48,865 bases of DNA from Candidatus Parcubacteria bacterium (GTDB lineage Bacteria; Patescibacteriota; Minisyncoccia; Minisyncoccales; JAGMAB01): NCBI GenBank assembly GCA_023131055.1, contig JAGMAB010000002.1, positions 1-48,865 on the forward strand, in the 5' to 3' direction. Positions 26,497 to 38,973 of this stretch are shown in pieces. The notes beneath the pieces are model-generated. The model was given only the letters and a program-made list of their open reading frames with translations. It did no database searches and was not told the origin of the DNA. Numbering within the stretch: the first letter of the stretch is position 1; every line of letters begins with the position of its first letter. The translations under genes and the position numbers were made by a program.

Positions 26497-28094
26497 CATA
26501 AGGGCCCATAATCTAGTGGTAAAATACCTCTATGGCATAGAGGAGTCGGGAGTTCGACTCTCCCTGGGTCCACTACTTGTGATTTTTGGGGAGATTTCAC
26601 CCTCAAAAACTGCTGATTTAAGTTAAAAATCACACCTAATTTAGCGGTTCCAAATCCCTTATTTTTGTCATAGGGAATTCCTTCTGGAAACACTAACTTT
26701 TGGAACCGAGGACGCGATTCAGGCAGTAGATCAAACCACTGCCTGCCTAAATTACTAATGAAGTTAGTAGCGTAAGTTAGAACCCCTTCAATATCAAACT
26801 GCTCTATCCGGGATTCATCCAAAGATATTTTTGTAGTAACGATTTCATTATCTGTTTCTTCTTTGCGTTCCTGAAATTCTTGTTTGGTATAAGAGCCATC
26901 TTCTCTCATCTCAAAAATTCTTTTTCTTTTGGCTTGGATTATTTCAAGTCTTTTTTCATATTTCTTGGCTTCTGATTCAAATCCTTTCCCTTTTTCTTGC
27001 CATAAATCCAACACGGTTTCCTTAAACAAATTTAGGAATTTTTCTTTGGGAGTAATTTTTTCTAAATACTGTAAAAATTCTTTTTCAATTGTTTTTTTTA
27101 CTATACTCTTGCCAAACATTTGGCATTCTTTGTTGCGGCAATGATAATAAAAATATCTGCCGCCATTGCCACGAGGAGAACTTCCTGTTAATGGTGTGTT
27201 GCATAAAGCGCAAATTATAGTTCTGCGAAGCGGAAAATTTGGGTTATACCTCACATATTTATTTAGCTGTTTTTTGCCAGTCCGAATAAGTTGAATTTTG
27301 TGAAATTCTTCTTTTGTAATCATTGCTTTGTGCAGACCTTCAATTTTTTCTCCGGTCCAAGGATTCACTAAAACACCTGTATAAAAATTCAAGTATTTTC
27401 CGAGTATTCTGTTAATAAATTGTAATGTGGTTTCTTTGCCGCGAATAGATTTTAATCCCCATTTATCAAGCAATTTTGATAGTTCTACTTGTGAATATAA
27501 TCCTTTAGCGTATTCTTTGAGCGCTTTCTGAATAATTGGGAAAATTTCTTTATCCGGTAAATCAGGTTCAGTTTTCTTTTCTCCTTGTTTTTTGAAATGA
27601 GAGCATTCATAGCCAATCGGTGGTTTCCATGGGAAAATGCCTTTATTTATTCTTTCTGACATGCCATCAATACAGCGTTGTTTTCGGATGGCATTATCAA
27701 ATTCTGAGCTGCCAGCTAAAACAGTTTCAATAAATTTTTCAGCAGGATTATTACCAATGGGTTCGGCAACTGAACGTAATGTAACCTTATAATCAAGTAA
27801 TGTTTTTCTTACATAAAAGTGGTCTTCAGTGTTTCGTGCAAATCTATCAACTTTAGCTACAACAAAAGCGTCAATCTTGCCTTTGTTTTTTCTACAAAAT
27901 TCTATTGCCCGTAAAAATTCAGCCCTATCAGCTGTTTTGGCAGAAGCGCCTTCTTCGCGAAAGACGGCTAATACTTCAATACCTTTTTCTTTACAGTAAT
28001 TGCGGCACTGTTCTTCTTGGAAATCCAAAGAAGTTCCTTTTACTTGTTCGTCGCTTGATACCCTTGTATAAATAATTCCTTTTATCTTTTCCAT
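26436..28094 (-). CDS. Large serine recombinase (resolvase + recombinase + Zn ribbon + coiled coil)
   Basis: IYTRVSS catalytic motif, VDRFARN, PPIGY, CALC...YYHC. The C-terminus runs antisense through tRNA-Ala and tRNA-Arg. Confidence 0.92.
   Translation of the reverse strand: MEKIKGIIYTRVSSDEQVKGTSLDFQEEQCRNYCKEKGIEVLAVFREEGASAKTADRAEFLRAIEFCRKNKGKIDAFVVAKVDRFARNTEDHFYVRKTLLDYKVTLRSVAEPIGNNPAEKFIETVLAGSSEFDNAIRKQRCIDGMSERINKGIFPWKPPIGYECSHFKKQGEKKTEPDLPDKEIFPIIQKALKEYAKGLYSQVELSKLLDKWGLKSIRGKETTLQFINRILGKYLNFYTGVLVNPWTGEKIEGLHKAMITKEEFHKIQLIRTGKKQLNKYVRYNPNFPLRRTIICALCNTPLTGSSPRGNGGRYFYYHCRNKECQMFGKSIVKKTIEKEFLQYLEKITPKEKFLNLFKETVLDLWQEKGKGFESEAKKYEKRLEIIQAKRKRIFEMREDGSYTKQEFQERKEETDNEIVTTKISLDESRIEQFDIEGVLTYATNFISNLGRQWFDLLPESRPRFQKLVFPEGIPYDKNKGFGTAKLGVIFNLNQQFLRVKSPQKSQVVDPGRVELPTPLCHRGILPLDYGPLCALGKSRTSIFSLGGKYSIH
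26502..26572 (+). tRNA. tRNA-Ala(GGC), probable integration site
   Basis: GGGCCCA/TGGGTCC acceptor with G3.U70; CCTCT-ATGGCAT-AGAGG. Confidence 0.92.
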
Positions 28095-28100
28095 AATACT

Positions 28101-28222
28101 TAAAGGGACGGTCTGGTTGACCCAACCTGCTTGCTCCGAAGAGTAGCCCATGCTGGCAGACCGCCCCTTTAGGGTCAGCATGGATAAAAAATCTCTTCGG
28201 ATATGCTACAGGATAGGTCAAC
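28101..28222 (-). ncRNA. Putative bistable structured RNA in the recombinase leader
   Basis: Long nested stem versus an alternative 15-bp stem closing three hairpins (one cUUCGg). Four positions pair as G.U only on the minus strand. Confidence 0.6.
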
Positions 28223-28229
28223 ACTTTTA

Positions 28230-28421
28230 TTATACAATATTTTCTTTTTTAGATAAAGTATATTTCTGTGGACAAACTTTTTCTTTTGGCTTTTTTTCTT
28301 TCTGCCATTTCTCAAAAATGATTTCAGCAAGATCACGAAAACCATCTCGGATTTCTTCTATTTCTTTGTTTGAAAATGTGTCATCGTTAAGAAGTTTCTT
28401 TACATGTTCAACACTTAACAT
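28230..28421 (-). CDS. Small protein upstream of the recombinase (possible directionality factor)
   Basis: 63 aa, helical (SNKEIEEIRD...LAEIIFEKW). Function inferred from position only. Confidence 0.55.
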   Translation of the reverse strand: MLSVEHVKKLLNDDTFSNKEIEEIRDGFRDLAEIIFEKWQKEKKPKEKVCPQKYTLSKKENIV

Positions 28422-28471
28422 GATTGTTTTTAATAACCAATTTATTTAGAAAAAGTATGTGTGCGACTCAC

Positions 28472-28936
28472 TCACTTTTTCTTTTTGATTTCTTTTTGGT
28501 TTTCTTCTGTAGTAATCTTAATAGCTTCTGATATGATTTCGGCGATTTCTCCTTCAAGTTCTTCATCAGACAAATTACTATATTCGTGCTCAACTACAAT
28601 GTTCTCCTTATATCTTCCCTTAATCTTATATGCCTTATCTAATCCGGCATCTCTAGCACGCCATTGATCGTTTGAAAGCAGTTCTTTATGGACTTTAGTT
28701 AATAATTCATCTGGCAACTGTTTTTGAATCAATTCTTGCCAATTGTGCGTTGATAATAATTGGCGCGGAGTTTCCGAATAAGATTTAGAATATCCTTCTA
28801 ATCGCATTGCTTCTCCAATACCAACACCTTTTCCGAGATTATCCGAGATTCTTTTGAGTAATCTTTTATGGCGTTCATTAACCACTTTATGCTTTTTTCT
28901 TGGCACTTTTTTATTTTTCTTAATTTTTTTGTTCAT
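28472..28936 (-). CDS. Terminase small-subunit-like HTH protein
   Basis: AMRLEGYSKSYS resembles the TerS A...AGYS motif; LDKAYKIKG; LSDEEL tail. Confidence 0.5.
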   Translation of the reverse strand: MNKKIKKNKKVPRKKHKVVNERHKRLLKRISDNLGKGVGIGEAMRLEGYSKSYSETPRQLLSTHNWQELIQKQLPDELLTKVHKELLSNDQWRARDAGLDKAYKIKGRYKENIVVEHEYSNLSDEELEGEIAEIISEAIKITTEENQKEIKKKK

Positions 28937-28946
28937 TACTATTCTG

Positions 28947-29147
28947 CTTGTTAATCTTGTTAAAACGCTATTAACAAGTTTTTATACTTAAATTGGTTCG
29001 TTTGTTAAACTTGTTAAATTTTGTTGACCAAAACCTTGCTTTTCAAGAAGATAATCAACTATTGATTATCTTCTGAAAGTTTGGTGTATTTTTGAAAAGC
29101 TTGTTAGTTTATTAATACATATAGGTTATCAAGCTTTTTTTAACAAG
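28947..29147. other. Putative replication origin: CTTGTTAA iterons and a 13-bp inverted repeat
   Basis: Iteron-like octamers at 28947, 28956, 28971(rc), 29001, 29010, 29100 and 29140(rc); AGAAGATAATCAA-CTA-TTGATTATCTTCT at 29046-29074. Confidence 0.65.
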
Positions 29148-29160
29148 CTTTTTGCTGTTT

Positions 29161-30282
29161 TTAGATGTTTTTTGATGGTAAAAAATAAAACTTCTTGTTT
29201 TGTTTGCCTGTCTTATTTTTGAGTATTCCTGTTTGTGTTAGTTCTTTGAGAGCATCTCGTAAATTATTTTTTCCAAAATTAAGCCCTTTTTTTGTTTTTT
29301 CTTCCATTAAATCATTTACTGACCATTCTTTATTCTCTTTAATAGTCGTTAAAATAAAGTCTTTAGCAATATCCTTTGCTTTTTTCTCTTCAAATTCACC
29401 TGTATATCTCCAAAAAGTTTTTTTCTTGAAAGGATTATACCAAATATCAACTCCAAATGATTTTAAGTTTTCTGTTAATCGCGCCTTATATTGAGTAATT
29501 GTTATGTGTAATCCATTAAAATCAGCTCCATCTTTATCAACAACCATTATCTTTCGGCTATCTAATAATAAATGACTGGCAACTTTTGCTAATATTTCTG
29601 TGCTTCCCCGGCTACTTGCTTGCCCGTAGTTCTCTCCCTTTTGCGGCTTTCTATGATGATGAAGGTATAAAATAGTAACATTTGTTTTATCAATTAAATT
29701 GAGTAATGTTCGGTTCACTTCTCGCATTTCAGAGGCGCTGTTTTCTTCCTTGCTGTGAGCAGAATTTAGAGTATCAATGATAAGCATTTCAAATTTATTT
29801 TTTTTAATAACTTTAACTAACCATTCATAATCGTCTTTACTATCAATCTGAAAATCCTGATTATGAAAAGAAATATCTGTTGGTTTATTAATAACTGTAT
29901 GAACCCGGTTAGTAATATCATATTCACTCATTTCTAAATCTAAGATTAAAACTTTCTTTTTCTTTGTTTTATAAATATCAAATAATTTCGTGCCTTCAGC
30001 AATTGCTTGTGCTATTTTGAGAGCAAATAATGATTTTCCTTTACCAACATCAGCGGTTAGAGCTGTAATAGCATTCTCCGGTATCATCTTATCAAGAATA
30101 AAAGGTTGTTTCTTGACTTCTTTTTTAAGAATATCTACTACTGATTCAATTTTTCGTTCAGTTTCTCTTTTAACTTGTTCTTCTATTTCTTCAGTTGATT
30201 TGATATCTACCATAACGGATGTATCCCTAAGTGGAAGTGTAATGTCATCCGTTATGAATAAACTTTCATTACACCTCCACAT
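29161..30282 (-). CDS. RepA-like (AAA_25, SF4) replicative helicase with C-terminal winged helix
   Basis: Walker A ADVGKGKS, LILDLEM, Walker B LIIDTL, LHHHRK, SRGSTEI. Confidence 0.82.
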   Translation of the reverse strand: MWRCNESLFITDDITLPLRDTSVMVDIKSTEEIEEQVKRETERKIESVVDILKKEVKKQPFILDKMIPENAITALTADVGKGKSLFALKIAQAIAEGTKLFDIYKTKKKKVLILDLEMSEYDITNRVHTVINKPTDISFHNQDFQIDSKDDYEWLVKVIKKNKFEMLIIDTLNSAHSKEENSASEMREVNRTLLNLIDKTNVTILYLHHHRKPQKGENYGQASSRGSTEILAKVASHLLLDSRKIMVVDKDGADFNGLHITITQYKARLTENLKSFGVDIWYNPFKKKTFWRYTGEFEEKKAKDIAKDFILTTIKENKEWSVNDLMEEKTKKGLNFGKNNLRDALKELTQTGILKNKTGKQNKKFYFLPSKNI

Positions 30283-30299
30283 AGGGATAAAGTTATTTT

Positions 30300-30875
30300 T
30301 TAAGTTAAAAATTTAACTGTTTCAACAAACGAAAACCCTTTGGTTTCTTGAATAAATTTGATTATATCTCCGTGCCAGCAGCAAGCAAAGCAATAAGCGA
30401 ATCCATTCTTAATATAGAAGCTTCCTTTTTTCTCGGAATGAAATGGACATAAAGCAAAATTCTTTTTTACTTCAATAAATCTTTCAAATGAGACCTGCCG
30501 TGCTTTTTCAATTTGTTGTTTAGTAATTTTTCCCCTTGTCTTTTTGAGTGGAAATAAAACCAATTTTATTTTAGAAATTTCTTTTATCATTTTATCCAAT
30601 TCCTCACCCTTCCAAGTTTTTATAATTTGTTTGAAAAACCAAAGGTTAAAACCGTTATATTTCTTTTGAACTCTCAGAAAATCAAGGTAAATTATCTGAC
30701 TTAGTTTATGAGCTTTTATTTCCATCTCTTTTAATTTTTTCTTCAAATAAGGTCTCACCTCTGGAAAAATCTGTAAAAGTTCAATACCAGAATATATTGG
30801 CAAAGATTTTTTCCACTCTTTTTCTAATTCTTTAATAAACGGGTCAAAACATAAATTTTGATTAAAGTTTTTCAT
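30300..30875 (-). CDS. CHC2 zinc-finger protein (primase zinc-binding domain, no Toprim)
   Basis: CPFHSEKKGSF...YCFACCWHGDIIKF..GFSFVE. Confidence 0.85.
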   Translation of the reverse strand: MKNFNQNLCFDPFIKELEKEWKKSLPIYSGIELLQIFPEVRPYLKKKLKEMEIKAHKLSQIIYLDFLRVQKKYNGFNLWFFKQIIKTWKGEELDKMIKEISKIKLVLFPLKKTRGKITKQQIEKARQVSFERFIEVKKNFALCPFHSEKKGSFYIKNGFAYCFACCWHGDIIKFIQETKGFSFVETVKFLT

Positions 30876-31045
30876 ATTTTTTTTCGCCGTTTTTGTTATT
30901 GTTTTATTTGATTATTCAATACTCAATATATTATTTAGTAGTGCTTTCAAAATAAAATCCACTAAGTGTTTGGCAGTCCGGCGGCGAGTGCGAATATGAA
31001 GCCCGCAGTGAGTTTGCTTAATTTCTCGTTACCAGAATATCACCC

Positions 31046-31083
31046 AAAAATAAAAAACCGGATGTATTACGTAACACCCGGTT
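31046..31083 (-). terminator. Intrinsic terminator/attenuator in the leader of the replication operon
   Basis: Minus strand AACCGGGTGT-TACGTAAT-ACATCCGGTT-TTTTATTTTT. Confidence 0.7.
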
Positions 31084-31224
31084 GATAAATCTTTGGAATT
31101 AAAAACTGGGTGTAAAACAATAATAGTAATTAGTGTTTCAAGGCCCAGTATTTACAAATTCTCGTTATACGAGAGTAGTCATCCACTTGACTACTAGTGG
31201 CTTCACTATTCAATTGTATATTTT

Positions 31225-31253
31225 AATAATAACAAACCCAAAAGATCTGTCAA
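31225..31253 (-). promoter_or_regulatory. Leftward sigma70-like promoter of the element
   Basis: Minus strand TTGACA-16 nt-(TGT)TATTAT. Confidence 0.5.
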
Positions 31254-31343
31254 GGGTTTAATTTATTTACTGCTTATGCTATCTTAAAATTAGAAAAATT
31301 AATAGCCTAACCTTCATAGATTTTTTATGAAGTATGGCATAAA

Positions 31344-31441
31344 AACCCGTCTAAGGTATCAAGCTCCTCGTCAGAGCACCTTAGACGGGTTATATCCCGA
31401 AAGGGGTATAGGTAGCGAAAGCTATCGCTGGCGGGGAGCTT
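31344..31441 (+). ncRNA. Putative cloverleaf/bistable structured RNA in the leader of the cargo operon
   Basis: Perfect 14-bp stem 31344-57/31378-91; alternative 14-bp stem 31361-74/31428-41; two GAAA-capped hairpins; G.U pairs on the + strand. Confidence 0.65.
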
Positions 31442-31470
31442 TGTGTTTACCCGCAAAGACACACGAAATT

Positions 31471-32589
31471 ATGAATAAGATTGTAAAAACGCTTTACAGA
31501 GTTGTCGGTGGCGTCGTCATATTTATTGTTGGCTCTATCGCTTACAGAGTTACAGCTGAGACGGTTCCCGTATTGATTCCATCTTTTGTTCTGATAGGAA
31601 TGCTGATAGTGTTTTTGAAGTTTACTGGGTTGTGGAATTGGCTTTTTGTGAAAAGAAAAAACAAACATCAAAAAGGTTCTATTCAAATATCAATTTTAGC
31701 AGTTATTGTTTTTGGAGTAGTTATCATTGGTGGGTTTGGTTACAATGAATACAAAAATTTTCAGAATGAAAAAATTGAAAACGAGAAATTATTAAGAAAA
31801 CAACAGGATAAACAAATTCAAGAGATAACTATAGCTCAACAAAAAGAGTTAGAGGAAACTAAGCAGGAGATCGAAAAATTAAAATCCGAAAATCAAGAAG
31901 ATAGTAAAAAAATTGAGGAATTGGAACAAAAACAGAAAGACGAAGAATTAAAAGCGATAGGAGAAAATTACCAACCGTTAAGCGCAACTACTTGGTATTT
32001 TGCAACACATATCGTAAAAATAATTTGTTCTGATGATGACTCGCAAGTGGTTAAAAATGGTAGTGGGACTGTTTTCGGATTAAATAGATTTATAATAACA
32101 AATTATCACGTTGTAAAAGATACTACTCAATGCGTTATTGGTATTACTGACGACATAAAAAAGCCACCTTCAAGGTGGTATGATGCGACCGTCGCTTCAA
32201 GTGTTCCATCTCTTGATATTGCCACCCTTAGACCAACACTACCGCTCCCAGACGATGTTATAAGGGTTGGCTCTGATTTTATATGTTCTACTGATGATAT
32301 TGAGCTGGGGGATGAAGTAATAATCATAGGGTATCCTACAGTTGGTGGAAGTACCATTACCGTTACAGAGGGTATTGTAAGCGGGTTTGATGGTTTTCTT
32401 GTTAAAACTTCTGCAAAAATGGAATTTGGAAACTCCGGTGGAGGCGCTTTCCTGCAAAAGCCAAAAACACCCGTTAGGGGCATTATGAGTTGTTGGTTCG
32501 GTATTCCTACTTTTGTGACTCAGGGCCAGTTAGAAAGTATTGGCAGTATTATCAATTATTCACTCATACACGAACAAGCAAATCAATAA
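31471..32589 (+). CDS. Membrane-anchored trypsin-like serine protease with coiled-coil stalk
   Basis: Three TM helices, coiled coil, catalytic triad ITNYHVV / LDIATL / GNSGGG. Confidence 0.85.
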   Translation: MNKIVKTLYRVVGGVVIFIVGSIAYRVTAETVPVLIPSFVLIGMLIVFLKFTGLWNWLFVKRKNKHQKGSIQISILAVIVFGVVIIGGFGYNEYKNFQNEKIENEKLLRKQQDKQIQEITIAQQKELEETKQEIEKLKSENQEDSKKIEELEQKQKDEELKAIGENYQPLSATTWYFATHIVKIICSDDDSQVVKNGSGTVFGLNRFIITNYHVVKDTTQCVIGITDDIKKPPSRWYDATVASSVPSLDIATLRPTLPLPDDVIRVGSDFICSTDDIELGDEVIIIGYPTVGGSTITVTEGIVSGFDGFLVKTSAKMEFGNSGGGAFLQKPKTPVRGIMSCWFGIPTFVTQGQLESIGSIINYSLIHEQANQ

Positions 32590-32599
32590 GTTAAAAATA

Positions 32600-32818
32600 A
32601 TGGAAAACAAATCATTTAACCTATTTAACCAAAAGAAGGAGTTAGTGGTAGCCGGGAAGAAGTTAGACCCGAAGAATTACCCGGTGCTTTATCGGTGGGC
32701 AGAGAGAAATCCGGAAACTCTTACAGAGCGCTTACAAGATTTAGCCGATAAGGTGTATAGCGGCGATATAGTGAGCGCCGCGCAAATGTTAGAGAGCGAT
32801 TTGGAACATAGTCAATAA
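32600..32818 (+). CDS. Hypothetical protein
   Basis: 72-aa ORF from an ATG 10 nt after the previous stop. Confidence 0.6.
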   Translation: MENKSFNLFNQKKELVVAGKKLDPKNYPVLYRWAERNPETLTERLQDLADKVYSGDIVSAAQMLESDLEHSQ

Positions 32819-32908
32819 TTAATCACTAAAAATAGTAAGAGATATTTTTAATTATCATGGATTTTCTTTTAGATTACCGTCAGAGTAGAGTATAATTAAA
32901 GACCATGA

Positions 32909-33397
32909 ATGAAGCCACAAAAAAAAATACAAAAAGAGATTCTTAATTTAATAACAAGGCAATTTAAGTTAGATATTGAGTTAGAACACGGAATATCTCA
33001 TTGGAAGAGAGTTAAAGAGATTGGCAATTACTTAGCTAAACACACTAAAGCAGACCTTAAAGTTATTAATCTTTTTGCTTATCTTCACGACTCAAAAAGA
33101 GAGAACGAAAACCACGATCCGGAGCACGGATTAAGAGCAAGCTTTTTTATTAAAGAACTATACAATAAAGACATATTGAATATCTCACAAAAACAATTAA
33201 ATCAACTATCCTTTGCCTGCGAGCACCATAATAATTCAAAGGTTAAAAGCGACGATATCACTATTCAAACTTGTTGGGACGCAGATAGATTAGATTTATG
33301 GAGAATTGGGGTTATTCCGGAACTGTCTTTATTAAATACAGCCATTGCTAAACAAGAAGAAACCATTGAACTTGCATGGAAATTAGGTAGGAAATAA
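32909..33397 (+). CDS. HD-domain phosphohydrolase
   Basis: HGISHWKRV, LHDSKR, EHG, CEHH, CWDADRLDL. Confidence 0.85.
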   Translation: MKPQKKIQKEILNLITRQFKLDIELEHGISHWKRVKEIGNYLAKHTKADLKVINLFAYLHDSKRENENHDPEHGLRASFFIKELYNKDILNISQKQLNQLSFACEHHNNSKVKSDDITIQTCWDADRLDLWRIGVIPELSLLNTAIAKQEETIELAWKLGRK

Positions 33398-33442
33398 AAT
33401 TAAAAAGCCCATCGCTGGGCAATTTTTATCTTAAATATTAGC

Positions 33443-33471
33443 AGGCGGAATCTTATTGGTTTCGTCTTTTT
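33443..33471 (+). terminator. Putative intrinsic terminator
   Basis: AGGCGGAATC-TTATT-GGTTTCGTCT-TTTT; a second hairpin GCCCA-TCGC-TGGGC lies at ~33407-33420. Confidence 0.5.
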
Positions 33472-33570
33472 GATTCCGGACAGAAAAATTTCGGCATCTT
33501 GCTTTATATTTTAGAAATGGTAGAACAAAAATAATACTGTATTATTCTTACGGTATCTATATGAGGCACT

Positions 33571-33647
33571 GAGTGTAACAGCTCGTAGCTTCGGCTACAA
33601 AACTTTATGTGGGTTTTGTAGTTGAGGCAAAAGGTTGATTACTACGA
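33571..33647 (+). promoter_or_regulatory. Structured leader with alternative folds
   Basis: GTAGC-TTCG-GCTAC hairpin competes with a 15-bp stem 33589-33603/33613-33627. Confidence 0.45.
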
Positions 33648-33670
33648 ATAAAATTTATTTAGAAACAACT

Positions 33671-34162
33671 ATGGGAATTTTAGATAGCATAAAAAAATCA
33701 TTGAAACAACAAAAAAAATCATTAGAACAACAAATTGAAGAAGCAAAAAGAACAGTTCACCTTACTTATTTAGGAGGACACCCTGATATTTCTTCTTCCA
33801 TGCCTATTCGACTAAAACGAGAGAATGATAATCTTAATTTATATAGATATGGTGGATATGGTGGTGAGAAATTCCTTACAAATATTCCCTTATCTGCTAT
33901 TAAATCAGTCCAATTCCAACGAGCTGGCAGTCGTTCTTTGGGTAAAGCTGCTGCTGGTGCAATTGGCGGAGGTATCTTACTTGGACCCCTTGGGTTGATT
34001 GTTGGTGGAGCTCTTGGTGGTAAAAAAAAGGACGAAAGTGTTATTGTAGTTACTATTCAACATGATTCTATGGAATTACAAATCTTATTTGGTAGCATTA
34101 CAGGAAAAAAGGGAATAATAGAAAGAAAATATTCTAAGTTTGTCCAGTTAATTAAACCATAG
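33671..34162 (+). CDS. Hypothetical protein with Gly-rich hydrophobic hairpin
   Basis: KAAAGAIGGGILLGPLGLIVGGALGGKKK, a pattern often seen in prophage accessory proteins. Confidence 0.7.
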   Translation: MGILDSIKKSLKQQKKSLEQQIEEAKRTVHLTYLGGHPDISSSMPIRLKRENDNLNLYRYGGYGGEKFLTNIPLSAIKSVQFQRAGSRSLGKAAAGAIGGGILLGPLGLIVGGALGGKKKDESVIVVTIQHDSMELQILFGSITGKKGIIERKYSKFVQLIKP

Positions 34163-34272
34163 ACAATTTTTGAAAAATATTTTCTTTTTTTAAAAAACTA
34201 AAAAGAACTGGTAGGATAAAATTAGAAAACTAAAAAGGTCGGTTTTAAATAATTTAATCAAAGTTATAAAAT

Positions 34273-34512
34273 ATGACAGAAGAAATACAATCAACTATAG
34301 AAAAATCCGAGAAAGATTGGTTAATTACTTTGTTACTTTCAATCTTTGTTGGAGCTTTTGGAATAGATCGTTTTTATCTGGGTAAAACAGGAACTGGTAT
34401 ATTAAAGTTAATTACCGGAGGCGGTTTTGGAATTTGGTGGTTGATAGATGTGATTTCAATCGCCACAGGAAAAATGAAGGATTCTGATGGAAAGATAGTG
34501 AAAGAAAAATAG
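34273..34512 (+). CDS. TM2-domain protein
   Basis: LLLSIFVGAFGIDRFYLG..GILKLITGGGFGIWWLID. Confidence 0.9.
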   Translation: MTEEIQSTIEKSEKDWLITLLLSIFVGAFGIDRFYLGKTGTGILKLITGGGFGIWWLIDVISIATGKMKDSDGKIVKEK

Positions 34513-34563
34513 AAAAAGTGGACGATAATAAAAGTCGATCATGATAAAAAATTTATCAAAATT

Positions 34564-35739
34564 ATGAACAAAAATATCCTAACATTTGGAGGAATAGTGA
34601 AAAGGAAACTTCAAACTAGTTATTCAAGAAAAGAAAAATTAGAAAAGTTAATTAAAAATTTAGAAGAACTTAAGGAAAAAGAATCAGTTAGTGAGGATAG
34701 ATATAATTTATTAAAGCAGGAATATAATAAATTCCTCGGACAATCAGAGAATACAATTAAAGAAATAAAGGAAGATTTAAAAAGGAAAGTTGAAGAAAAA
34801 GAGAACAAGCTGAAAACATTGAAAGAGGATTTAGAAAATTTAGAGACAAGATCTAAGGTGGGAGAAATTGAACAGAAGGATTTCCAAAAGTCTAAAATTT
34901 CTGTAGTAAAAAGGATTGAACAATTAGAAAAAGAAATTCCCAAACTGAAAGAACTTCTTAATTCAGAATTCTCTTCGGATTTAGGCGGGTATTTAGATGT
35001 CAAAATAGAAGAGGGAAAAGGATTAGGTGGTATTATAAAAACAGTTGGCATTAGTTCTGATACATTGGATAGAATAAAAGAATTTTTTTTAGGATTGAGT
35101 GTTTCTCCTAAAAAATTAGCAGTAGGAATAGGTATGATTATAGCAATTCTTTATTTGATTGTTTTTTCAGGAAGTGGATTACCAGGCAAGTATGTGAATA
35201 TCAATAATGAGAGCGACATTGTAGAACTTAAAACAGACAAAACCTTTACATCTAAAGAATATGGAGTTTCTTTTTCAGGAAATTATAAAATTAAGGGCAA
35301 AAAACTTATATTTGAACTTGATGTTTTTGGAGCATCTTTTCCTACAGAATGTACACGAGTCAAAAATGGTTTTGATTGTCCGGATGGTAGTCAATATAGA
35401 AAAGTCAAGGAAAAATCATCTGTAAAAGTAAAAAGGAATTCACCGTCAGCGACAGTTAAAACTTTTTTTGAAGCGATTGAGAAAGGAGAATATTCTAAAA
35501 TGATAGATTATATTAGTTCTCGTACTCTAATGTCAGAACCGTTTAGCGTACAATATTTTAACGAAATAAAAGAAGAAATGAACAATAAAGGTGGAATTAA
35601 GAAAATTGATATTATAAAAGAAGAAATTGAGGGTGAAACTGCTAAGGTTTGTTATAGTATTGAATATGGTAATGGTAGTACCGATGGACGTTGTAATTAT
35701 TTTATAAAAGAAGAGGGTGCTTGGAAAATATCGGAATAA
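34564..35739 (+). CDS. Bitopic membrane protein: cytoplasmic coiled coil (CdvA-like), TM helix, small beta domain, DUF4878/NTF2-like C-terminus
   Basis: LENLETRSKVGEI; TM helix at about aa 185-201; SPSATVKTFFEAI...IKEEGAWKI. Confidence 0.65.
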   Translation: MNKNILTFGGIVKRKLQTSYSRKEKLEKLIKNLEELKEKESVSEDRYNLLKQEYNKFLGQSENTIKEIKEDLKRKVEEKENKLKTLKEDLENLETRSKVGEIEQKDFQKSKISVVKRIEQLEKEIPKLKELLNSEFSSDLGGYLDVKIEEGKGLGGIIKTVGISSDTLDRIKEFFLGLSVSPKKLAVGIGMIIAILYLIVFSGSGLPGKYVNINNESDIVELKTDKTFTSKEYGVSFSGNYKIKGKKLIFELDVFGASFPTECTRVKNGFDCPDGSQYRKVKEKSSVKVKRNSPSATVKTFFEAIEKGEYSKMIDYISSRTLMSEPFSVQYFNEIKEEMNNKGGIKKIDIIKEEIEGETAKVCYSIEYGNGSTDGRCNYFIKEEGAWKISE

Positions 35740-35762
35740 TAAATTTGAGATTTTGACTTTTC

Positions 35763-36329
35763 ATGAATAAAAAATTTACCATTTTAATAATCGGTATTTT
35801 ACTTTTAGCTATCACCGGAGGAATTTTTTGGTGGCAGAGTGAAAAGGAATTAAAAGAGCTAAATAAAAATTTGCCTGATGGAGTAAAAATAGAGAAAAAA
35901 GAAGGACAGTATAAGGTAGTAAATAAAAGAGATGGATACGAAATAAAAATGCCTAAAGAATGGGAAGAATTATATTGGGTTGATTACATTTTTGAGAAAG
36001 GAATGATAGGCCACGTCATTGTTTTAGAACCATTTGAAAAAGAAGGGGTGGGAATTAGTTGCATCATACCGGACCCACCAGATGTAAATTTAGAAATTTG
36101 GATACAAGATTATTGTGAAAAATTCTTTAAGAATCCTCTGATAGAAAGGGGAAAGATAGGGGATTTTGAAATAACTAAATTAAAAAAGGAGTATTCTATT
36201 CGAGGTGGAAAAGAAAAAATAAGTAAGTATTTATATGTGTTTCGACAAAACTCAAAAATTTGTCAAATTGGCGGTGAATCAAAAGATTCTATCCACTACA
36301 TAATCCTAAATAGTAAATGGTCATTGTAA
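35763..36329 (+). CDS. Membrane-anchored hypothetical protein (PsbP-like motif)
   Basis: N-terminal TM helix; NKRDGYEIKMPKEW. Confidence 0.6.
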   Translation: MNKKFTILIIGILLLAITGGIFWWQSEKELKELNKNLPDGVKIEKKEGQYKVVNKRDGYEIKMPKEWEELYWVDYIFEKGMIGHVIVLEPFEKEGVGISCIIPDPPDVNLEIWIQDYCEKFFKNPLIERGKIGDFEITKLKKEYSIRGGKEKISKYLYVFRQNSKICQIGGESKDSIHYIILNSKWSL

Positions 36330-36353
36330 GTTTAATACCTTAGACAACGACAT

Positions 36354-38357
36354 ATAAAATTTAAATCCATAATTCTAAAATTTAGTAGAATAGGATTAAC
36401 TACATTATTAGTAGCTGCGATTTTTCTTTCTTTAAATATCCCAACCGCAATGGCTTGGGATTGGTCTTGGTTGTCTTGGGTTGAATCAAAAGAATTTAAA
36501 ATTAAAGAAGATGATGAGAATTTTTTAAAAATTAAAGAGGAATTAGGAATTGAAGAGATATATACATGGACAGAAGAAAATATCATTCGCTCCCCTGAAC
36601 TGATTACTTTTACTGATCACGAATTAGAAAAAATTCTTAATGAAAAAATAGGTTCCGAAGTTTCAGATTTAACCTATGGAGTTGCTATTTTAGATATTTT
36701 GTATGAAAGAGATATAGTTGATGCCCTTCCCGGTTCTTCATGGCACCAGAAAAAGTATATAGATATTTATTTTGAAAATATGTCTAATATAAACTTTTGG
36801 GCTAAAGAAGGTCAATTTACGGCTGAAAAATTTTTAGGAGAATGCTCGGGAGTTATTGGAAGTACTATTCTTATGATACCTGATTTGCTTGAAGCAGGAG
36901 TTAGCTTTAAAATGCTATCGAAAACATTTAAGAGTAAAGTTTACTGGCATTATTTTCAGGAATGTTCTCAAGGTATAGATAGCGATAATACATTTATGAT
37001 TGGAATAGAAGTAGGATGTTATCCTGTTGGAGGTCTTCCACGTATATATTTAGACTCGGCAGGAAATTTAAACGAGAAGGGCAAAAAAACAAAGGAATAC
37101 TTGGAAAAACTATGGAACCAATATGGAGAAGGTTATGATTCAGACTCGCGTAAAGGAGGATTAACAAAAGAGTTTAAATTTCAACATAAGAAGGAACTCA
37201 CAGAAATTCTTATTTTTGCGATTAAAGAATTACGAGAAGAGAAAAAATTTCTGCCACTTCCTACTTGGGAAGAAATAGAAAAACCCAAATCTGCTGAAGA
37301 TAAAGATTCCGAAACAGCATCATTAGTTCTGCCATCAGTCATAGAAGAAATCGCAGAACAAGGAGAGAAAGAGCAAGCGAAAGAAGAAAAAAAACCGCCG
37401 GCCAAAGAAAAAGATATTTTGTCAGGAAAATATGTAAGCATAGTTGACGAAGATGATTTTGTAGAACTTTATAAAGATAAAACTTTTTACACACCGGAAT
37501 CTTTTTCTTACTCTATGAAAGCCTACGGGATGGAGTATGGCGCGGAAGCGAAGTATGAATTTTTTGGAAAGTATAATATTCGAGATAATAATATCTTCTT
37601 CAAATATAATAAGGTTAAAATTGAATCAGGAGGATTTGAAATTGAGACAGATCTTTTTGGCGTTTCTATCAACTGTACTTTATCTCTTGATGGTTTTGAT
37701 TGTCCGGATGGAAGTCAATATAGGAAATATGAAAAAGATGAATTCATAGAGCAAGGAGAAAAAGAGCCAAGAGAAGAAAAAACAGAAGGATCGGGGGTCG
37801 GAGAATCTGTTCTTTTAAAATATCGTTTGTGTTCTCCGATGAATCAGAAAAAAGAAAAAGTTGATTCTCAAATAGAAGTAAGTTTGGGAACATGGATTGA
37901 TAAAAATCTTGGTCTTAAAATGAGATGGATTAGTTGTAGAGAAAACGAGGGTATATGGAGTAGTGGATATCTTGACATTGAAGACCATACAGTGATTGGA
38001 GAACATCTTTGGGTAGTGGGAACCATAGAGGGTGGTGATGGTTTGATTTTTTATAGTCGAGATGGCGGAATATCTTGGGAACTTCAATGGAACGAACCTC
38101 ATAAGATGTTTGGTGGATCCTATCCTTTTGTGGTATATTTTTTAAATATAACAGAAGGATGGGTTGGAATGAAAGGTGATTTTTTTTATACTAAAAATGG
38201 TGGCAAAAACTGGATATCCAACGATGTGCCCAACGAAGGTTCTTATATAAAAGAATATTGGTTTTATAACGATCAACGGATTGTAGCAAAAACTGCCTAT
38301 GGTAATATCGTTTGCGAATCGGTTAATGGTGGAGAAAATTGGGAGTGTGATCCTTAA
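36354..38357 (+). CDS. Secreted multidomain protein with C-terminal BNR/Ycf48-like repeats; start uncertain (first ATG at 36450)
   Basis: SRDGGISW, TKNGGKNW, SVNGGENW. An in-frame signal peptide lies upstream of the first ATG. Confidence 0.65.
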   Translation: MKFKSIILKFSRIGLTTLLVAAIFLSLNIPTAMAWDWSWLSWVESKEFKIKEDDENFLKIKEELGIEEIYTWTEENIIRSPELITFTDHELEKILNEKIGSEVSDLTYGVAILDILYERDIVDALPGSSWHQKKYIDIYFENMSNINFWAKEGQFTAEKFLGECSGVIGSTILMIPDLLEAGVSFKMLSKTFKSKVYWHYFQECSQGIDSDNTFMIGIEVGCYPVGGLPRIYLDSAGNLNEKGKKTKEYLEKLWNQYGEGYDSDSRKGGLTKEFKFQHKKELTEILIFAIKELREEKKFLPLPTWEEIEKPKSAEDKDSETASLVLPSVIEEIAEQGEKEQAKEEKKPPAKEKDILSGKYVSIVDEDDFVELYKDKTFYTPESFSYSMKAYGMEYGAEAKYEFFGKYNIRDNNIFFKYNKVKIESGGFEIETDLFGVSINCTLSLDGFDCPDGSQYRKYEKDEFIEQGEKEPREEKTEGSGVGESVLLKYRLCSPMNQKKEKVDSQIEVSLGTWIDKNLGLKMRWISCRENEGIWSSGYLDIEDHTVIGEHLWVVGTIEGGDGLIFYSRDGGISWELQWNEPHKMFGGSYPFVVYFLNITEGWVGMKGDFFYTKNGGKNWISNDVPNEGSYIKEYWFYNDQRIVAKTAYGNIVCESVNGGENWECDP

Positions 38358-38445
38358 TTGTCTAAATGAGCAGTCATAAATCTAAAATATAAAAGAGAAT
38401 TCGTTAATTATTTGTTTCTATACAAAAGAAGCAATAATGTATAAA

Positions 38446-38476
38446 AAAGCAGGTATTTCCCCCTGCTTTCTTTATT
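38446..38476 (+). terminator. Putative intrinsic terminator
   Basis: AAAGCAGG-TATTTCCC-CCTGCTTT-CTTTATT. Confidence 0.55.
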
Positions 38477-38636
38477 ACTGACAACTAAAAAATAGTGCTA
38501 TAATTATACAAAAGATAAAACTGTATAAAAAATATGCAGGGAAAATCACTCATACAAAAAAGAACAGGGAAAATTAAGGTCAACTCTATTTTTTTAGAAA
38601 TAGTGAATAATAAGATAGGATGAGTAATAAGCTATT

Positions 38637-38918
38637 ATGACTGAAGTAACTAAATTTATAAAACAAGAAGCAAAAGAAAATGGTGAAGTGGTAAGAACAT
38701 GCCCGCTTGTATATGGTGGAGCCTCTGTGGAAGTTAAGCTTTATATCTTTTTCAAAAATGGAAAAATCACGAGGTCTATAAAATGGAGTTTTATGAACAA
38801 TCTTTTTCTTCCTAAAGATCAATGTCGATTGACTTATTATGATTTTAAAGAAACAATGGAACAGATTTCATTTTGGCATAAAATAGGCAAGGTGCCGATT
38901 TTCAAAAATAGTGAGTAG
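38637..38918 (+). CDS. Hypothetical protein
   Basis: 93-aa ORF with no recognisable motif. Confidence 0.45.
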   Translation: MTEVTKFIKQEAKENGEVVRTCPLVYGGASVEVKLYIFFKNGKITRSIKWSFMNNLFLPKDQCRLTYYDFKETMEQISFWHKIGKVPIFKNSE

Positions 38919-38973
38919 CCATAAGTAATAAAATAAAATAAATCTATGGAAGAAAAAAATAAAGAGAAAAATT

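What the first reader, a model, noticed from the sequence alone, without database searches (positions are those of the whole stretch)
26560..33650. Candidate new system: repressor-less integrative satellite apparently controlled by several bistable/cloverleaf leader RNAs
Seen: the element encodes recombinase, TerS-like, helicase and CHC2 proteins, but I recognise no CI/Stl-type repressor at the divergent junction (30875-31471). Four leaders (28101-28222, ~31020-31215, 31344-31441, 33571-33647) carry strong helices. In at least three, G.U pairs work only on the coding strand and there are two competing folds. Known: phage P1/P7 c4 and satellite P4 CI small RNAs control expression by pairing with complementary sites in their own leader. 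Inference: integration, replication and cargo expression in this CPR element are RNA-controlled, possibly by an undescribed RNA family.
Basis: partly seen in the sequence, partly recalled or inferred. Interest (0 to 1): 0.85.

Follow-up and report, generated by a model that had tools for sequence, protein, structure and literature searches.

The report
Structured leader RNAs in CPR element
A 14-kb mobile element sitting in a tRNA gene of a tiny-genome bacterium starts its two gene blocks with conserved folded RNAs, one already catalogued (LOOT) and one apparently undescribed pseudoknot in front of the integration enzyme's gene.

Summary
The helices are real, but the four "leaders" are not equivalent.

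- **Leader 3** is the known Rfam family LOOT (RF03000, 100 bits against a 46.4-bit cut-off).
- **Leader 1** (28095-28222, minus strand) is a conserved RNA motif that Rfam 15 does not match. It has three covarying helices and a 14-bp pseudoknot ending about 7 nt before the recombinase AUG. A TATAAT box sits 6 nt before its first base. I found it in 60 distinct sequences and in at least 119 metagenome stretches. All 49 downstream ORFs scanned are serine recombinases.
- **Leaders 2 and 4** fold well but have no detectable homologues.

The element is larger than reported. It spans 26574-40816 (14.2 kb), as shown by an empty site in a same-genus genome and in contigs of two sequencing runs.

LOOT lies divergently 1.4-6.8 kb from leader 1 in about two thirds of loci with at least 7 kb of upstream sequence.

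No c4/P4-like RNA was found, and no pairing of leader 1 with LOOT or with the attachment site. "Repressor-less" and "satellite" remain unproven.

Most likely, leader 1 gates recombinase translation in cis. That is inferred, not shown.

The parts
26502..26573 (+). tRNA-Ala(GGC), the integration target. Its last 5 nt (TCCAC, 26569-26573) are repeated at the other end of the element.
   Evidence: ARAGORN, Rfam tRNA, empty-site comparison, joint with 5 shared letters.
26577..28094 (-). Large serine recombinase. The open frame runs on through the junction to a stop at 26436, antisense to tRNA-Ala and tRNA-Arg.
   Evidence: Pfam Resolvase 5e-30, Zn_ribbon_recom, Recombinase. Homologues of 50-74% identity end at a tRNA 3' end. 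The ORF stop lies in or beyond the tRNA in 30 of 31 loci.
28095..28222 (-). Leader 1, a conserved 5'-leader RNA motif. P1 28222-28210/28128-28116. P2 28201-28193/28143-28135. P3 28183-28176/28155-28148. Pseudoknot 28170-28157 with 28115-28102. The AUG is at 28094.
   Evidence: Covariance models R1 and R2. Covariation counts. 49 of 49 downstream ORFs are Resolvase. No Rfam match.
28229..28234 (-). TATAAT -10 box, 6 nt upstream of the first base of leader 1. It overlaps the stop codon of the 63-aa gene.
   Evidence: A hexamer matching at least 5 of 6 lies at exactly this distance in 56 of 60 distinct family members, 48 of them exact. TTG near -35 is present in about 70%.
28230..28421 (-). 63-aa protein, member of a small helical protein family found in many related elements. 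Function unknown.
   Evidence: tblastn hits in L079, L084, L075, L083. Alignment A9. AF2 model of two helices, pLDDT 78. No Pfam or PHROG family.
28472..28936 (-). 154-aa basic protein, unassigned. The 'TerS-like' label is a lead only.
   Evidence: No Pfam, PHROG or PDB-sequence hit. ESM-Atlas nearest clusters are viral, one with Terminase_2 on 24% of members. AF2 pLDDT 59.9, and no Foldseek match below E=4.
29161..30282 (-). AAA_25 / DnaB-like helicase (replication).
   Evidence: Pfam AAA_25 4.8e-25, DnaB_C. PHROG primase/helicase families.
30300..30875 (-). CHC2 zinc-finger (primase-type) protein.
   Evidence: Pfam Zn_ribbon_DnaG 2.7e-13. PHROG DNA primase families.
31040..31253 (-). Leader 2. 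A promoter-like site (TTGACA-16-TATTAT with TG, 31253-31226) is followed by a ~180-nt structured leftward leader ending in a terminator-like hairpin with a U run (31083-31056). It lies 170 nt upstream of the CHC2 gene.
   Evidence: Consensus scan. Fold z -6.23. No homologue found by blastn in 41 loci.
31304..31455 (+). LOOT RNA (Rfam model 31304-31426) plus a conserved 3' extension with the loop GAGCUUUGUGUU. The promoter-like -10 TAAAAT at 31285-31290 is my own reading of the sequence.
   Evidence: cmscan 100 bits against a 46.4-bit cut-off. A second genomic copy carries compensatory changes in all four stems. 3' arms pair better with their own 5' arms. RNAalifold on a MAFFT alignment did not recover that hairpin.
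31471..32589 (+). Membrane-anchored trypsin-like protease, the first cargo gene. It starts 20 nt after the nhmmer LOOT match (45 nt after the Rfam model).
   Evidence: Pfam Trypsin_2 6e-16. Downstream-ORF survey.
33407..33467 (+). Two terminator-like hairpins after the 162-aa gene. The first (33407-33420) is a short hairpin found near-identical in many genomes of the order.
   Evidence: Consensus scan. Many 26-45-nt hits at 85-100% identity.
33571..33647 (+). Leader 4, a long G.U-rich hairpin upstream of the 175-aa gene. Not conserved.
   Evidence: Fold z -4.85 on plus, -2.05 on minus. No hit in 41 loci. None in the rows listed from the 401-genome search.
32540..40567 (+). Rest of the rightward cargo block: 92-aa and 162-aa proteins, a 175-aa protein, a TM2 protein, a DUF4878 coiled-coil protein, a 188-aa membrane protein, a 635-aa BNR-like protein, small membrane proteins, and an extra YceG/MltG copy (39311-40567).
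   Evidence: Pfam. A second YceG copy lies on contig C1.
40812..40816 (.). Right end of the insertion, the second copy of TCCAC. The host gene resumes at 40817.
   Evidence: G022 joins 26573 to 40817. Contigs of runs X2 and X3 carry the joint 26568->40817 with 5 shared letters and a 24-letter side.

Best explanation
Shown. The reported region is the left half of a 14.2-kb integrative element (26574-40816). It is inserted at the 3' end of tRNA-Ala(GGC) in a small-genome (CPR/Patescibacteria-type) bacterium. It belongs to a widespread family of tRNA-targeting elements that carry a large serine recombinase.

The family has a fixed plan:
- a tRNA gene;
- a convergent recombinase gene whose frame crosses the junction;
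- leader 1 with its own -10 box;
- a leftward replication and small-gene block;
- often a divergent LOOT RNA placed directly in front of a rightward block of variable cargo genes, many encoding membrane proteins.

Leader 3 is LOOT. Leader 1 is a conserved RNA that Rfam does not match. It has three nested covarying helices. A 14-bp pseudoknot pairs the P3 loop with the stretch immediately following P1, and ends a few to about 25 nt before the AUG.

Inferred. Leader 1 is transcribed from the TATAAT box and starts at its first G. It acts in cis on the recombinase mRNA. P1 and the pseudoknot form a near-continuous helix that abuts the ribosome landing zone. This keeps translation low, and perhaps shields the 5' end, unless a factor shifts the fold.

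The pseudoknot and joining strands are nearly invariant, while the recombinases diverge to about 20% identity. I therefore favour a universal input over an element-encoded protein. That input would be a small ligand, in the manner of H-type pseudoknot riboswitches, or a conserved host factor. I put the ligand version at about 0.35.

LOOT most likely acts in cis on the cargo transcript, through stability, processing or read-through of internal terminators. That too is inferred.

Leaders 2 and 4 are local structures of this element only. Leader 2 may be an attenuator.
For: Boundaries:
- The same-genus genome G022 joins window 26573 directly to 40817.
- The same joint, with 5 shared letters, appears in contigs of runs X2 and X3.

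LOOT:
- 100 bits against a 46.4-bit cut-off.
- Found in 26 of 151 genomes of the order, with up to 6 copies. Absent from the same-genus genome and from 14 control genomes.
- 41 of 46 distinct copies have an ORF of at least 50 aa starting within 60 nt downstream on the same strand.

Leader 1:
- Nucleotide identity is 71-81% in loci whose recombinase is only 24-28% identical.
- On 52 distinct rows, 90.3% of cells pair against 32-50% when partners are slid. 36 of 43 pairs change on both sides. 0 of 500 shuffles reach the observed value.
- On 15 rows found without the pseudoknot pattern, 93.4% pair. The 14 pseudoknot pairs, which were not in the covariance model, are 92-94% paired, and 8 of them change on both sides.
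- In the pattern-fetched set the R/Y pair is GC in 39 rows and AU in 12, with no mismatch, although the pattern allowed mismatches.
- A -10 box matching at least 5 of 6 lies at a fixed distance in 56 of 60 sequences.
- 49 of 49 downstream ORFs are Pfam Resolvase.
- By a rough measure the AUG lies within 25 nt of the pseudoknot in 52 of 57 sequences, median 11.
- Distribution: 5 of 151 genomes of the order, 10 of 151 across the phylum, 47 genome stretches, at least 119 metagenome stretches.

Architecture:
- LOOT lies upstream and divergent in every locus where both RNAs were detected. That is 12 genome loci by nhmmer and 10 of 10 metagenome LOOT hits. One more locus, L072/G073, carries the LOOT that only cmscan found.
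- Where at least 7 kb of upstream sequence was available, LOOT was present in 7 of 12 genome loci, or 8 with the weak G073 copy. It was present in 8 of 11 metagenome loci.
- The ORFs between the two RNAs lie almost all on the recombinase strand.
Against: - No RNA data. No listed sequencing run is RNA, so transcription, the start site and any regulation are unproven.
- The alignments used for P1-P3 were fitted to the model, which inflates pairing for those helices.
- Leader 1 is missing from five of the six closest recombinase relatives (50-74% identity: G300, G070, G132, G353, G244). It is therefore dispensable for this recombinase clade.
- There is no recognisable Shine-Dalgarno sequence, and the start codon itself is not paired, so the expression platform is not obvious.
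- Strong sequence conservation of a helix could also mean a protein or DNA-level site.
- LOOT is absent from about a third of leader-1 elements that have enough flanking sequence. It also occurs without leader 1.
- The empty-site joint in runs X2 and X3 has only 24 letters on its shorter side and was laid at 90% likeness. It may come from a relative such as the G022 type.
Confidence: 0.7

Rival explanations
1. First reader's model. A repressor-less phage satellite whose immunity and gene expression are run by c4/P4-CI-like small antisense RNAs. These would pair with complementary sites in their own leaders, through bistable folds.
For: - No CI/Cro-type HTH is recognised in this element or among 71 ORFs of 13 related leftward modules.
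- Structured RNAs do sit at the heads of both divergent units.
- Leader 2 has a promoter-like site plus a terminator-like hairpin, which could give a ~180-nt RNA.
- One related element carries a Terminase_2 protein next to leader 1.
Against: - No Rfam family other than LOOT and tRNA reaches even E<=1 with a meaningful score.
- Cognate leader 1-LOOT duplex energies are no better than non-cognate ones (-61.5 against -64.1 kcal/mol; 98% of permutations are as good).
- Leaders 2 and 4 are not conserved.
- Neither RNA pattern occurs in 2.9 million IMG/VR viral contigs.
- TerS identity of the 154-aa protein is unsupported by Pfam, PHROGs, PDB sequence search or Foldseek.
- Most ORFs are unassigned, so absence of a repressor is not established.
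Confidence: 0.07
2. Leader 1 is an operator RNA for an element-encoded protein. The protein would be the recombinase itself, a directionality factor, or the conserved ~60-aa helical protein encoded just upstream. This would give autoregulation rather than sensing of a ligand or host factor.
For: - The motif is tied strictly to recombinase genes (49 of 49).
- In this window and its closest relatives, a small conserved protein gene lies immediately 5' of it.
- A long, sequence-invariant helix is a typical protein-recognition feature.
Against: - The recombinases downstream share only 18-26% identity across clades, yet the pseudoknot sequence barely changes.
- The gene just upstream of the motif differs between elements. 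It is a Terminase_2 protein, a 376-399-aa protein or a 113-aa protein in others.
- Close recombinase relatives work without the motif.
Confidence: 0.2
3. Leader 1 and/or LOOT act as DNA rather than RNA. They would fold as single-stranded DNA or be bound as duplex DNA, serving as replication origin, packaging site or accessory recombination site.
For: - Some related elements encode rolling-circle-type Rep proteins (Phage_CRI in 2 of 71 ORFs). Such proteins use folded single-stranded origins.
- Weinberg et al. 2017 (PMC5737381, passages read) state that ssDNA and RNA motifs are hard to tell apart by comparison alone.
- Both strands of leader 1 and of LOOT fold better than shuffles.
Against: - Leader 1 has many G.U pairs that would be A.C on the other strand. 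One pseudoknot pair is G.U in 50 of 52 rows.
- A -10 box lies at a fixed 6-nt distance and a start codon follows directly. Strand and position relative to the gene never vary.
- LOOT always points into the downstream ORF.
- Leader 1 shows no similarity or complementarity to the attachment junction beyond chance. Longest shared word for own pairs is 6.5 nt, against 6.3-6.4 for other pairs, over 31 loci.
Confidence: 0.07
4. LOOT is a free trans-acting small RNA (Rfam's own type label, 'Gene; sRNA') and only happens to be carried by mobile elements. Leader 1 is a constitutive stabilising 5' structure with no regulatory input.
For: - Rfam lists LOOT as 'Gene; sRNA'.
- LOOT has its own promoter-like boxes.
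- Leader 1 begins exactly at the predicted start site with a long stem. By general knowledge of 5'-end-dependent RNA decay, such a stem is what protects an mRNA.
Against: - No terminator follows LOOT in the window, by my reading of the sequence. The scan lists no plus-strand terminator between 31426 and 33400.
- 41 of 46 LOOT copies are followed within 60 nt by an ORF on the same strand.
- The near-invariance of the leader 1 pseudoknot and joining strands exceeds what a mere protective stem needs.
Confidence: 0.15

Closest known systems
LOOT RNA motif (Rfam RF03000; from Weinberg et al. 2017, NAR 45:10811; shown as a 'metagenomic-based RNA' in the Rfam 14 paper, PMC7779021, passage read)
   Same: Leader 3 matches the full 121-position model at 100 bits. 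It has the serial hairpins with GAAA-type loops. A second copy in the same genome keeps all stems through compensatory changes.
   Different: - Here it gains a genomic context: the head of the cargo block of serine-recombinase elements, divergent from the recombinase.
- It has a conserved 3' extension and a conserved 5' stretch after a -10 box, both outside the Rfam model.
- Whether the original supplement already noted this context I could not check. Supplements are closed, and the main text names LOOT nowhere outside a reference author's name.
- The expansion 'lots of tetraloops' is recalled, not read.
H-type pseudoknot riboswitches that gate translation (SAM-II, preQ1-II, fluoride classes). 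Recalled from general knowledge, not from a call.
   Same: - A compact leader that starts at the transcription start.
- A pseudoknot whose 3' strand lies just upstream of the start codon.
- A U-rich joining strand that could line a groove.
- Free covariation in peripheral helices with near-invariant core sequence.
   Different: - No Rfam family matches.
- The pseudoknot is long (14 bp). It joins a hairpin loop nested inside two further helices to the 3' tail.
- No Shine-Dalgarno sequence is evidently sequestered.
- No ligand is known, and the regulated gene is a recombinase rather than a metabolic or transport gene.
Structured RNA motifs upstream of integrase genes, such as the int-alpA motif of the 2017 Weinberg set. 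Recalled; it is not in the main text I could read.
   Same: A conserved structured element in the 5' region of a mobile-element integrase gene, with function unknown.
   Different: As I recall it, int-alpA goes with tyrosine integrases and alpA in Proteobacteria. Leader 1 goes with large serine recombinases in CPR bacteria and does not match any Rfam model.
Phage P1/P7 c4 and satellite P4 CI antisense RNAs
   Same: Small structured RNAs of a mobile element, placed in leaders of its own operons.
   Different: - No Rfam match to these families.
- No conserved complementary target sites found.
- No cognate leader 1-LOOT pairing.
Phage-inducible chromosomal islands and other phage satellites
   Same: Size (14 kb), an integrase at one edge, a primase/helicase replication module, divergent transcription units, and no capsid genes recognised.
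   Different: - A serine rather than tyrosine integrase.
- No recognised master repressor.
- No confirmed small terminase or capsid-remodelling gene.
- No helper known.
- Neither RNA pattern occurs in viral contig collections.

Membership tests
LOOT RNA (RF03000) | Score at or above the curated gathering threshold over the whole covariance model | tested here: met
   100 bits against 46.4, model positions 1-121 of 121, E 5e-19.
LOOT RNA (RF03000) | Stems kept through compensatory change between copies | tested here: met
   The two copies in this genome differ on both sides in all four stems.
c4 / P4-CI type antisense RNA | Match to the Rfam models of these families | tested here: not met
   cmscan of 26000-34600 against all 4227 families at E<=1 gave only LOOT, two tRNAs and two sub-threshold chance hits.
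c4 / P4-CI type antisense RNA | Complementary target sites in the element's own leaders | tested here: inconclusive
   Only leader 1 against LOOT was tested, with a crude duplex-energy comparison. Cognate pairs were no better than non-cognate ones.
Large serine recombinase integrative element | Resolvase catalytic domain plus Recombinase and zinc-ribbon domains | tested here: met
   PF00239 5e-30, PF07508, PF13408.
Large serine recombinase integrative element | A discrete insertion with an empty site in relatives and a short shared core | tested here: met
   G022 and contigs of runs X2 and X3 join 26573 to 40817, with the 5-nt TCCAC shared.
Riboswitch / cis-regulatory leader (for leader 1) | Conserved structure with covariation, fixed position in the 5' UTR of one gene class | tested here: met
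   covariation; 49 of 49 Resolvase; -10 box in 56 of 60.
Riboswitch / cis-regulatory leader (for leader 1) | Expression platform that couples the fold to initiation or termination | tested here: inconclusive
   The pseudoknot ends at a median of about 11 nt before the AUG. No paired Shine-Dalgarno sequence, paired start codon or terminator is evident.
Riboswitch / cis-regulatory leader (for leader 1) | Specific ligand binding that changes the fold | not testable with these tools
   Needs in-line probing or an equivalent assay.
Phage satellite (PICI-like) | Integrase plus own replication module | tested here: met
   Serine recombinase, CHC2 and AAA_25/DnaB-like proteins.
Phage satellite (PICI-like) | Packaging-redirection gene (small terminase or capsid-size factor) | tested here: inconclusive
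   The 154-aa protein has no Pfam, PHROG, PDB or Foldseek match. Only an Atlas lead exists.
Phage satellite (PICI-like) | Dependence on a helper phage, and a master repressor lifted by it | not testable with these tools
   No helper is known. No repressor was recognised.
Transcription attenuator (for leader 2) | Promoter, then a leader with a terminator hairpin and U run ahead of the operon | tested here: met
   Consensus scan: 11 of 12 promoter match with TG at 31253-31226, and a 10-bp stem plus U run at 31083-31056. Fold z -6.23.
Transcription attenuator (for leader 2) | Conservation or covariation of alternative folds in relatives | tested here: not met
   No blastn homologue in 41 related loci.

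The most novel reading that the evidence does not exclude
Leader 1 is a new riboswitch-like class: a ligand- or host-factor-responsive pseudoknot. It would decide when a CPR-wide family of tRNA-targeting serine-recombinase elements makes its recombinase. Together with LOOT at the head of the cargo block, it would give these elements an RNA-centred control plan in place of a classical protein repressor switch.
Probability: 0.25. Interest if true: 0.8.

Novelty: new member of a known kind. Interest (0 to 1): 0.6.

Why it matters
Three things would follow if this holds.

- **An orphan RNA gets a context.** LOOT has been catalogued since 2017 as a metagenome RNA. In the text I could read it has no function. 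Here it marks the start of the cargo block of a defined mobile-element family.
- **A well-supported new RNA family.** Leader 1 has 60 distinct sequences in hand and many more in metagenomes. It shows covariation in all four helices, and one gene class always lies downstream. That is a ready candidate for ligand or protein screening. It would be one of the few regulatory RNAs known from CPR bacteria, whose gene regulation and mobile elements are poorly understood.
- **A possible directionality device.** These serine recombinases target tRNA genes, and their reading frame crosses the attachment site. Integration and excision should therefore swap the enzyme's C-terminal tail. That is of interest to people who mine serine integrases as genome-engineering tools.

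None of the regulatory roles is shown yet.

Tried and rejected
- **RNA-guided recombination (bridge-RNA-like).** I compared leader 1 with the element/tRNA junction in 31 loci. The longest shared or complementary word was the same for own and foreign pairs (6.5 against 6.3-6.4 nt). Rejected.
- **Leader 1-LOOT pairing.** Cognate duplex energies were no better than non-cognate ones. The test is crude, because long duplexes dominate.
- **Viral origin.** Exact-pattern scans of IMG/VR for leader 1 and for the LOOT 3' loop found 0 stretches. This covers exact patterns only.
- **Expression data.** No RNA holder is listed among the public runs.
- **The 154-aa protein.** Pfam, PHROGs and PDB sequence search gave nothing. 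The AF2 model from a 9-row alignment had pLDDT 59.9, and Foldseek found no match below E=4. At that confidence the fold search is uninformative.
- **The 63-aa protein.** AF2 gives two helices, pLDDT 78. That is not a three-helix HTH or a ribbon-helix-helix. No fold search was run.
- **LOOT 3' hairpin.** RNAalifold on a MAFFT alignment of 24 of the 38 sequences did not recover it. A cognate-against-non-cognate arm test on 37 of 38 sequences did favour it (-8.5 against -6.9 kcal/mol; 0 of 5000 permutations as good). Several copies lack a 3' arm.
- **Rows dropped.**
  - For the Pfam survey of leftward modules I submitted 71 of 79 ORFs. The 8 left out were on the opposite strand and I judged them shadow ORFs.
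  - For the downstream-ORF scan, 49 of 52 distinct loci were submitted. The 3 left out had ORFs under 60 aa, cut off by the end of the locus.
  - The nhmmer LOOT counts miss weak copies such as G073, which only cmscan found.
- **Literature.** Six searches gave no paper describing leader 1 or the context of LOOT.
  - Of Weinberg 2017 (PMC5737381) I read passages only. Of the Rfam 14 paper I read one passage.
  - Of Roux 2019 on inoviruses I read three passages. It places inoviruses in CPR hosts and lists serine recombinases, with nothing on these RNAs.
  - Of the 2026 bioRxiv preprint 10.64898/2026.10.21.760802 I read passages. It does not mention serine recombinases, Patescibacteria or LOOT in its main text. 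Its released database of RNA clusters could contain leader 1.
  - Supplements of all papers were closed and may bear on both novelty claims.
Nothing from it was used.

Full report
**What is at the coordinates**

The window is contig C12 of a 506-kb, 87%-complete genome. That size fits the CPR/Patescibacteria-type bacteria named in the record titles of related loci.

On the minus strand the region holds four assigned or partly assigned genes:
- a large serine recombinase, 26577-28094 (Resolvase 5e-30, plus Recombinase and Zn_ribbon_recom);
- a 63-aa and a 154-aa protein with no family;
- an AAA_25/DnaB-like helicase, 29161-30282;
- a CHC2 zinc-finger protein, 30300-30875.

On the plus strand, from 31471, lie a membrane-anchored trypsin-like protease and further cargo genes.

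All four reported leaders fold better than dinucleotide shuffles:
- leader 1, z -4.15;
- LOOT region, z -5.40;
- leader 4, z -4.85;
- leader 2 read as one minus-strand RNA, z -6.23.

A neighbouring control stretch does not (z about +1.2). The raw observation of strong helices stands.

**Leader 3 is a known family**

Rfam cmscan places LOOT (RF03000) at 31304-31426 on the plus strand. It scores 100 bits against a 46.4-bit cut-off over the whole model.

A second copy lies on contig C31 (91.6 bits). It differs from the first by compensatory changes in all four stems. It shares an identical 23-nt stretch beyond the 3' end of the model.

At E<=1, nothing else in 26000-34600 matches any of the 4227 families, apart from two tRNAs and two far sub-threshold chance hits. 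No c4-type RNA appears.

**Leader 1 is a conserved RNA that Rfam does not match**

A DNA search of 401 genomes of the same order returned short hits to 28096-28252. These were far better conserved than the adjoining recombinase gene.

In fetched loci the leader is 71-81% identical at the nucleotide level where the recombinase is only 24-28% identical as protein.

Reading the sequences gives the following layout:
- a TATAAT box;
- six bases;
- P1, P2 and P3, nested;
- a pseudoknot between the P3 loop and the 14 nt that follow P1;
- a short A/U-rich spacer and the AUG.

I built a covariance model from ten sequences with P1-P3 only. It found the motif in 5 of 151 genomes of the order.

A degenerate pattern on the pseudoknot arms found 47 stretches in 185,579 species genomes. 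Almost all carry CPR-group labels.

On 52 distinct rows:
- 90.3% of cells pair, against 32-50% when partners are slid;
- 36 of 43 pairs change on both sides;
- no shuffle of 500 reaches the observed value.

That alignment was fitted to P1-P3, and most rows were fetched with a pseudoknot pattern. I therefore repeated the count on 15 rows found by covariance model or blastn alone. There 93.4% of cells pair. The pseudoknot was never in the model. Its 14 pairs are 92-94% paired, and 8 of them change on both sides. This includes matched insertions and deletions visible.

Within the pattern-fetched set, the R/Y position is GC in 39 rows and AU in 12, with no mismatch. The pattern would have allowed mismatches.

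One pseudoknot pair is G.U in 50 of 52 rows. This fixes the strand as the recombinase sense strand.

**Leader 1: promoter and gene link**

- A hexamer matching TATAAT in at least 5 of 6 positions lies exactly 6 nt upstream of the first base in 56 of 60 distinct sequences, 48 of them exact. TTG is present near -35 in about 70%. The RNA very probably starts with the first G of P1.
- All 49 downstream ORFs submitted, out of 52 distinct loci, match Pfam Resolvase. The other three were cut off by locus ends.
- A refined model found the motif in 10 of 151 genomes sampled across the phylum.
- The motif is absent from five close recombinase relatives of 50-74% identity. It is present in one relative of 74% identity. 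It is therefore not obligatory.

**The element and its family**

The same-genus genome G022 lacks both RNAs. It joins window 26573, the last base of tRNA-Ala, directly to 40817. TCCAC is present at both ends of the inserted 14.2 kb.

Contigs of two other runs of the same study carry the same joint. It has 5 shared letters and only 24 letters on the shorter side, and was laid at 90% likeness. These contigs may come from a G022-like relative, so they are not independent proof of excision.

The island therefore runs 26574-40816, not to 33650. It carries a second, divergent YceG/MltG gene, while the ordinary copy lies on contig C1.

Every recombinase homologue examined abuts the 3' end of a tRNA gene convergently. 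The tRNAs seen are Ala, Arg, Lys, Gln, Asp, His, Ser, Asn, Glu and Met. In 30 of 31 loci the recombinase frame has no stop inside the element and ends within or beyond the tRNA.

**Where LOOT sits**

LOOT occurs in 26 of 151 genomes of the order, patchily and with up to six copies. It occurs in none of 14 control genomes.

In every locus where both RNAs were detected, LOOT is upstream of leader 1 and divergent from it, 1.4-6.8 kb away. That holds for 12 genome loci by nhmmer, for one more locus where only cmscan found LOOT (G073), and for 10 of 10 metagenome LOOT hits.

Where at least 7 kb of upstream sequence was available:
- 7 of 12 genome loci hold LOOT, or 8 counting the weak G073 copy;
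- 8 of 11 metagenome loci hold LOOT.

The ORFs between the two RNAs lie almost all on the recombinase strand.

Of 46 distinct LOOT copies, 41 are followed within 60 nt by a same-strand ORF of at least 50 aa. Many of these ORFs begin with a hydrophobic, membrane-type segment.

LOOT also has features outside the Rfam model. A conserved 3' extension is often closed by a hairpin (supported, not recovered). A conserved 5' stretch follows a -10-like box.

**Leaders 2 and 4**

Leader 2 contains a strong promoter-like site on the minus strand (31253-31226) and a terminator-like hairpin with a U run (31083-31056), ahead of the CHC2 gene. This layout fits an attenuator or a ~180-nt RNA.

Leader 4 is a long hairpin rich in G.U pairs.

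Neither has a homologue in 41 related loci. The 401-genome search listed none in the rows shown. Nothing can be said about their function.

**Repressor and satellite claims**

No HTH repressor is recognised in the element.

I scanned 71 ORFs from 13 related leftward modules, after dropping 8 opposite-strand ORFs. The families found were DUF5659 (7), CHC2 (2), Zn_ribbon_Top1 (2), Phage_CRI (2), and single Terminase_2, HTH_17, Phage_integrase and methylase hits. Most of the 71 ORFs match nothing.

The 63-aa protein belongs to a family conserved across elements. Its model is two helices. The 154-aa protein could not be modelled with confidence.

A palindrome-like site overlaps the leftward -35 (31234-31259, my reading). 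It could be a protein operator.

Absence of a repressor is thus not shown. The 'satellite' label rests on one weak lead.

**How it most likely works**

Shown:
- the structures, their conservation, their fixed position and their gene association;
- the element boundaries.

Inferred:
- Leader 1 is the 5' end of the recombinase mRNA.
- P1 and the pseudoknot share one continuous 3' strand, so they can stack into a roughly 27-bp helix.
- That helix ends at a median of about 11 nt before the AUG by a rough measure, inside the ribosome's footprint.

I therefore read leader 1 as a cis-acting gate on recombinase translation and perhaps on mRNA stability.

The core sequence is almost invariant across recombinases of about 20% identity. 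For that reason I favour a universal input, either a small ligand or a conserved host factor, over an element-encoded protein. The rivals are listed with odds.

LOOT probably acts in cis on the cargo transcript.

RNA guidance of recombination and leader 1-LOOT pairing were tested and found no support.

**Comparison and novelty**

LOOT is already known.

Leader 1 resembles pseudoknot riboswitches in design. It also resembles other integrase-upstream motifs in its placement. Both comparisons are recalled from general knowledge. It matches no Rfam family and appears in none of six literature searches.

It is best filed as a new member of the known kind "conserved structured 5'-leader RNA".

Noticed in passing
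window 26436-26576 and 40726-40816; loci: The recombinase reading frame has no stop inside the element. In 30 of 31 related loci it ends within or beyond the antisense tRNA gene. In the window the integrated form adds a 46-aa tail read from tRNA-Ala and tRNA-Arg. By my reading of the sequence, the excised circle would instead continue into the right end of the element and give a different tail of about 30 aa. This could be a directionality device.
   Followed up: partly
window 33400-33425: A short hairpin (5-bp GC-rich stem, 4-nt loop, A run before and T run after) recurs at 85-100% identity. It is often present in several copies in many genomes of the order. It scores as a terminator on both strands. 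It is probably a shared bidirectional terminator or a small repeat element.
   Followed up: no
own genome contig C31:16921-17042 (locus L003 6001-6122): A second LOOT copy lies in front of a 90-aa membrane protein gene. It sits beside small genes homologous to leftward-module genes of related elements (my reading). No second serine recombinase exists anywhere in the assembly. It may be a remnant, or an element with a different integrase.
   Followed up: partly
window 39311-40567: The island carries an extra, divergent YceG/MltG-type gene (Pfam 1.8e-69). The copy that matches relatives' genes lies on contig C1.
   Followed up: partly
window 31234-31259: A palindrome-like site has 6-bp outer arms around a central AGATCT. 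It overlaps the -35 of the leftward promoter-like site and lies between the divergent promoters. It is a candidate protein operator, which would argue against 'repressor-less'. This is my own reading of the sequence; it was not tested against chance.
   Followed up: no
window 28230-28421; L079, L084, L127, L128, L037, L125, L140, L159, L152: A family of ~60-aa two-helix proteins recurs in the leftward modules. DUF5659 proteins occur in 7 of 71 ORFs surveyed. The function of both is unknown.
   Followed up: partly
window 35366-35403 and 37690-37727: A 38-nt segment, 95% identical, is shared by two cargo genes (the 391-aa and 635-aa proteins). The proteins also align over about 119 residues at 36% identity.
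   Followed up: no
loci (upstream of LOOT): Many LOOT copies have a TATAAT-like box about 25 nt upstream. A conserved stretch of about 15 nt lies between that box and the first position of the Rfam model. The transcribed RNA is therefore probably longer at the 5' end than the Rfam family.
   Followed up: partly
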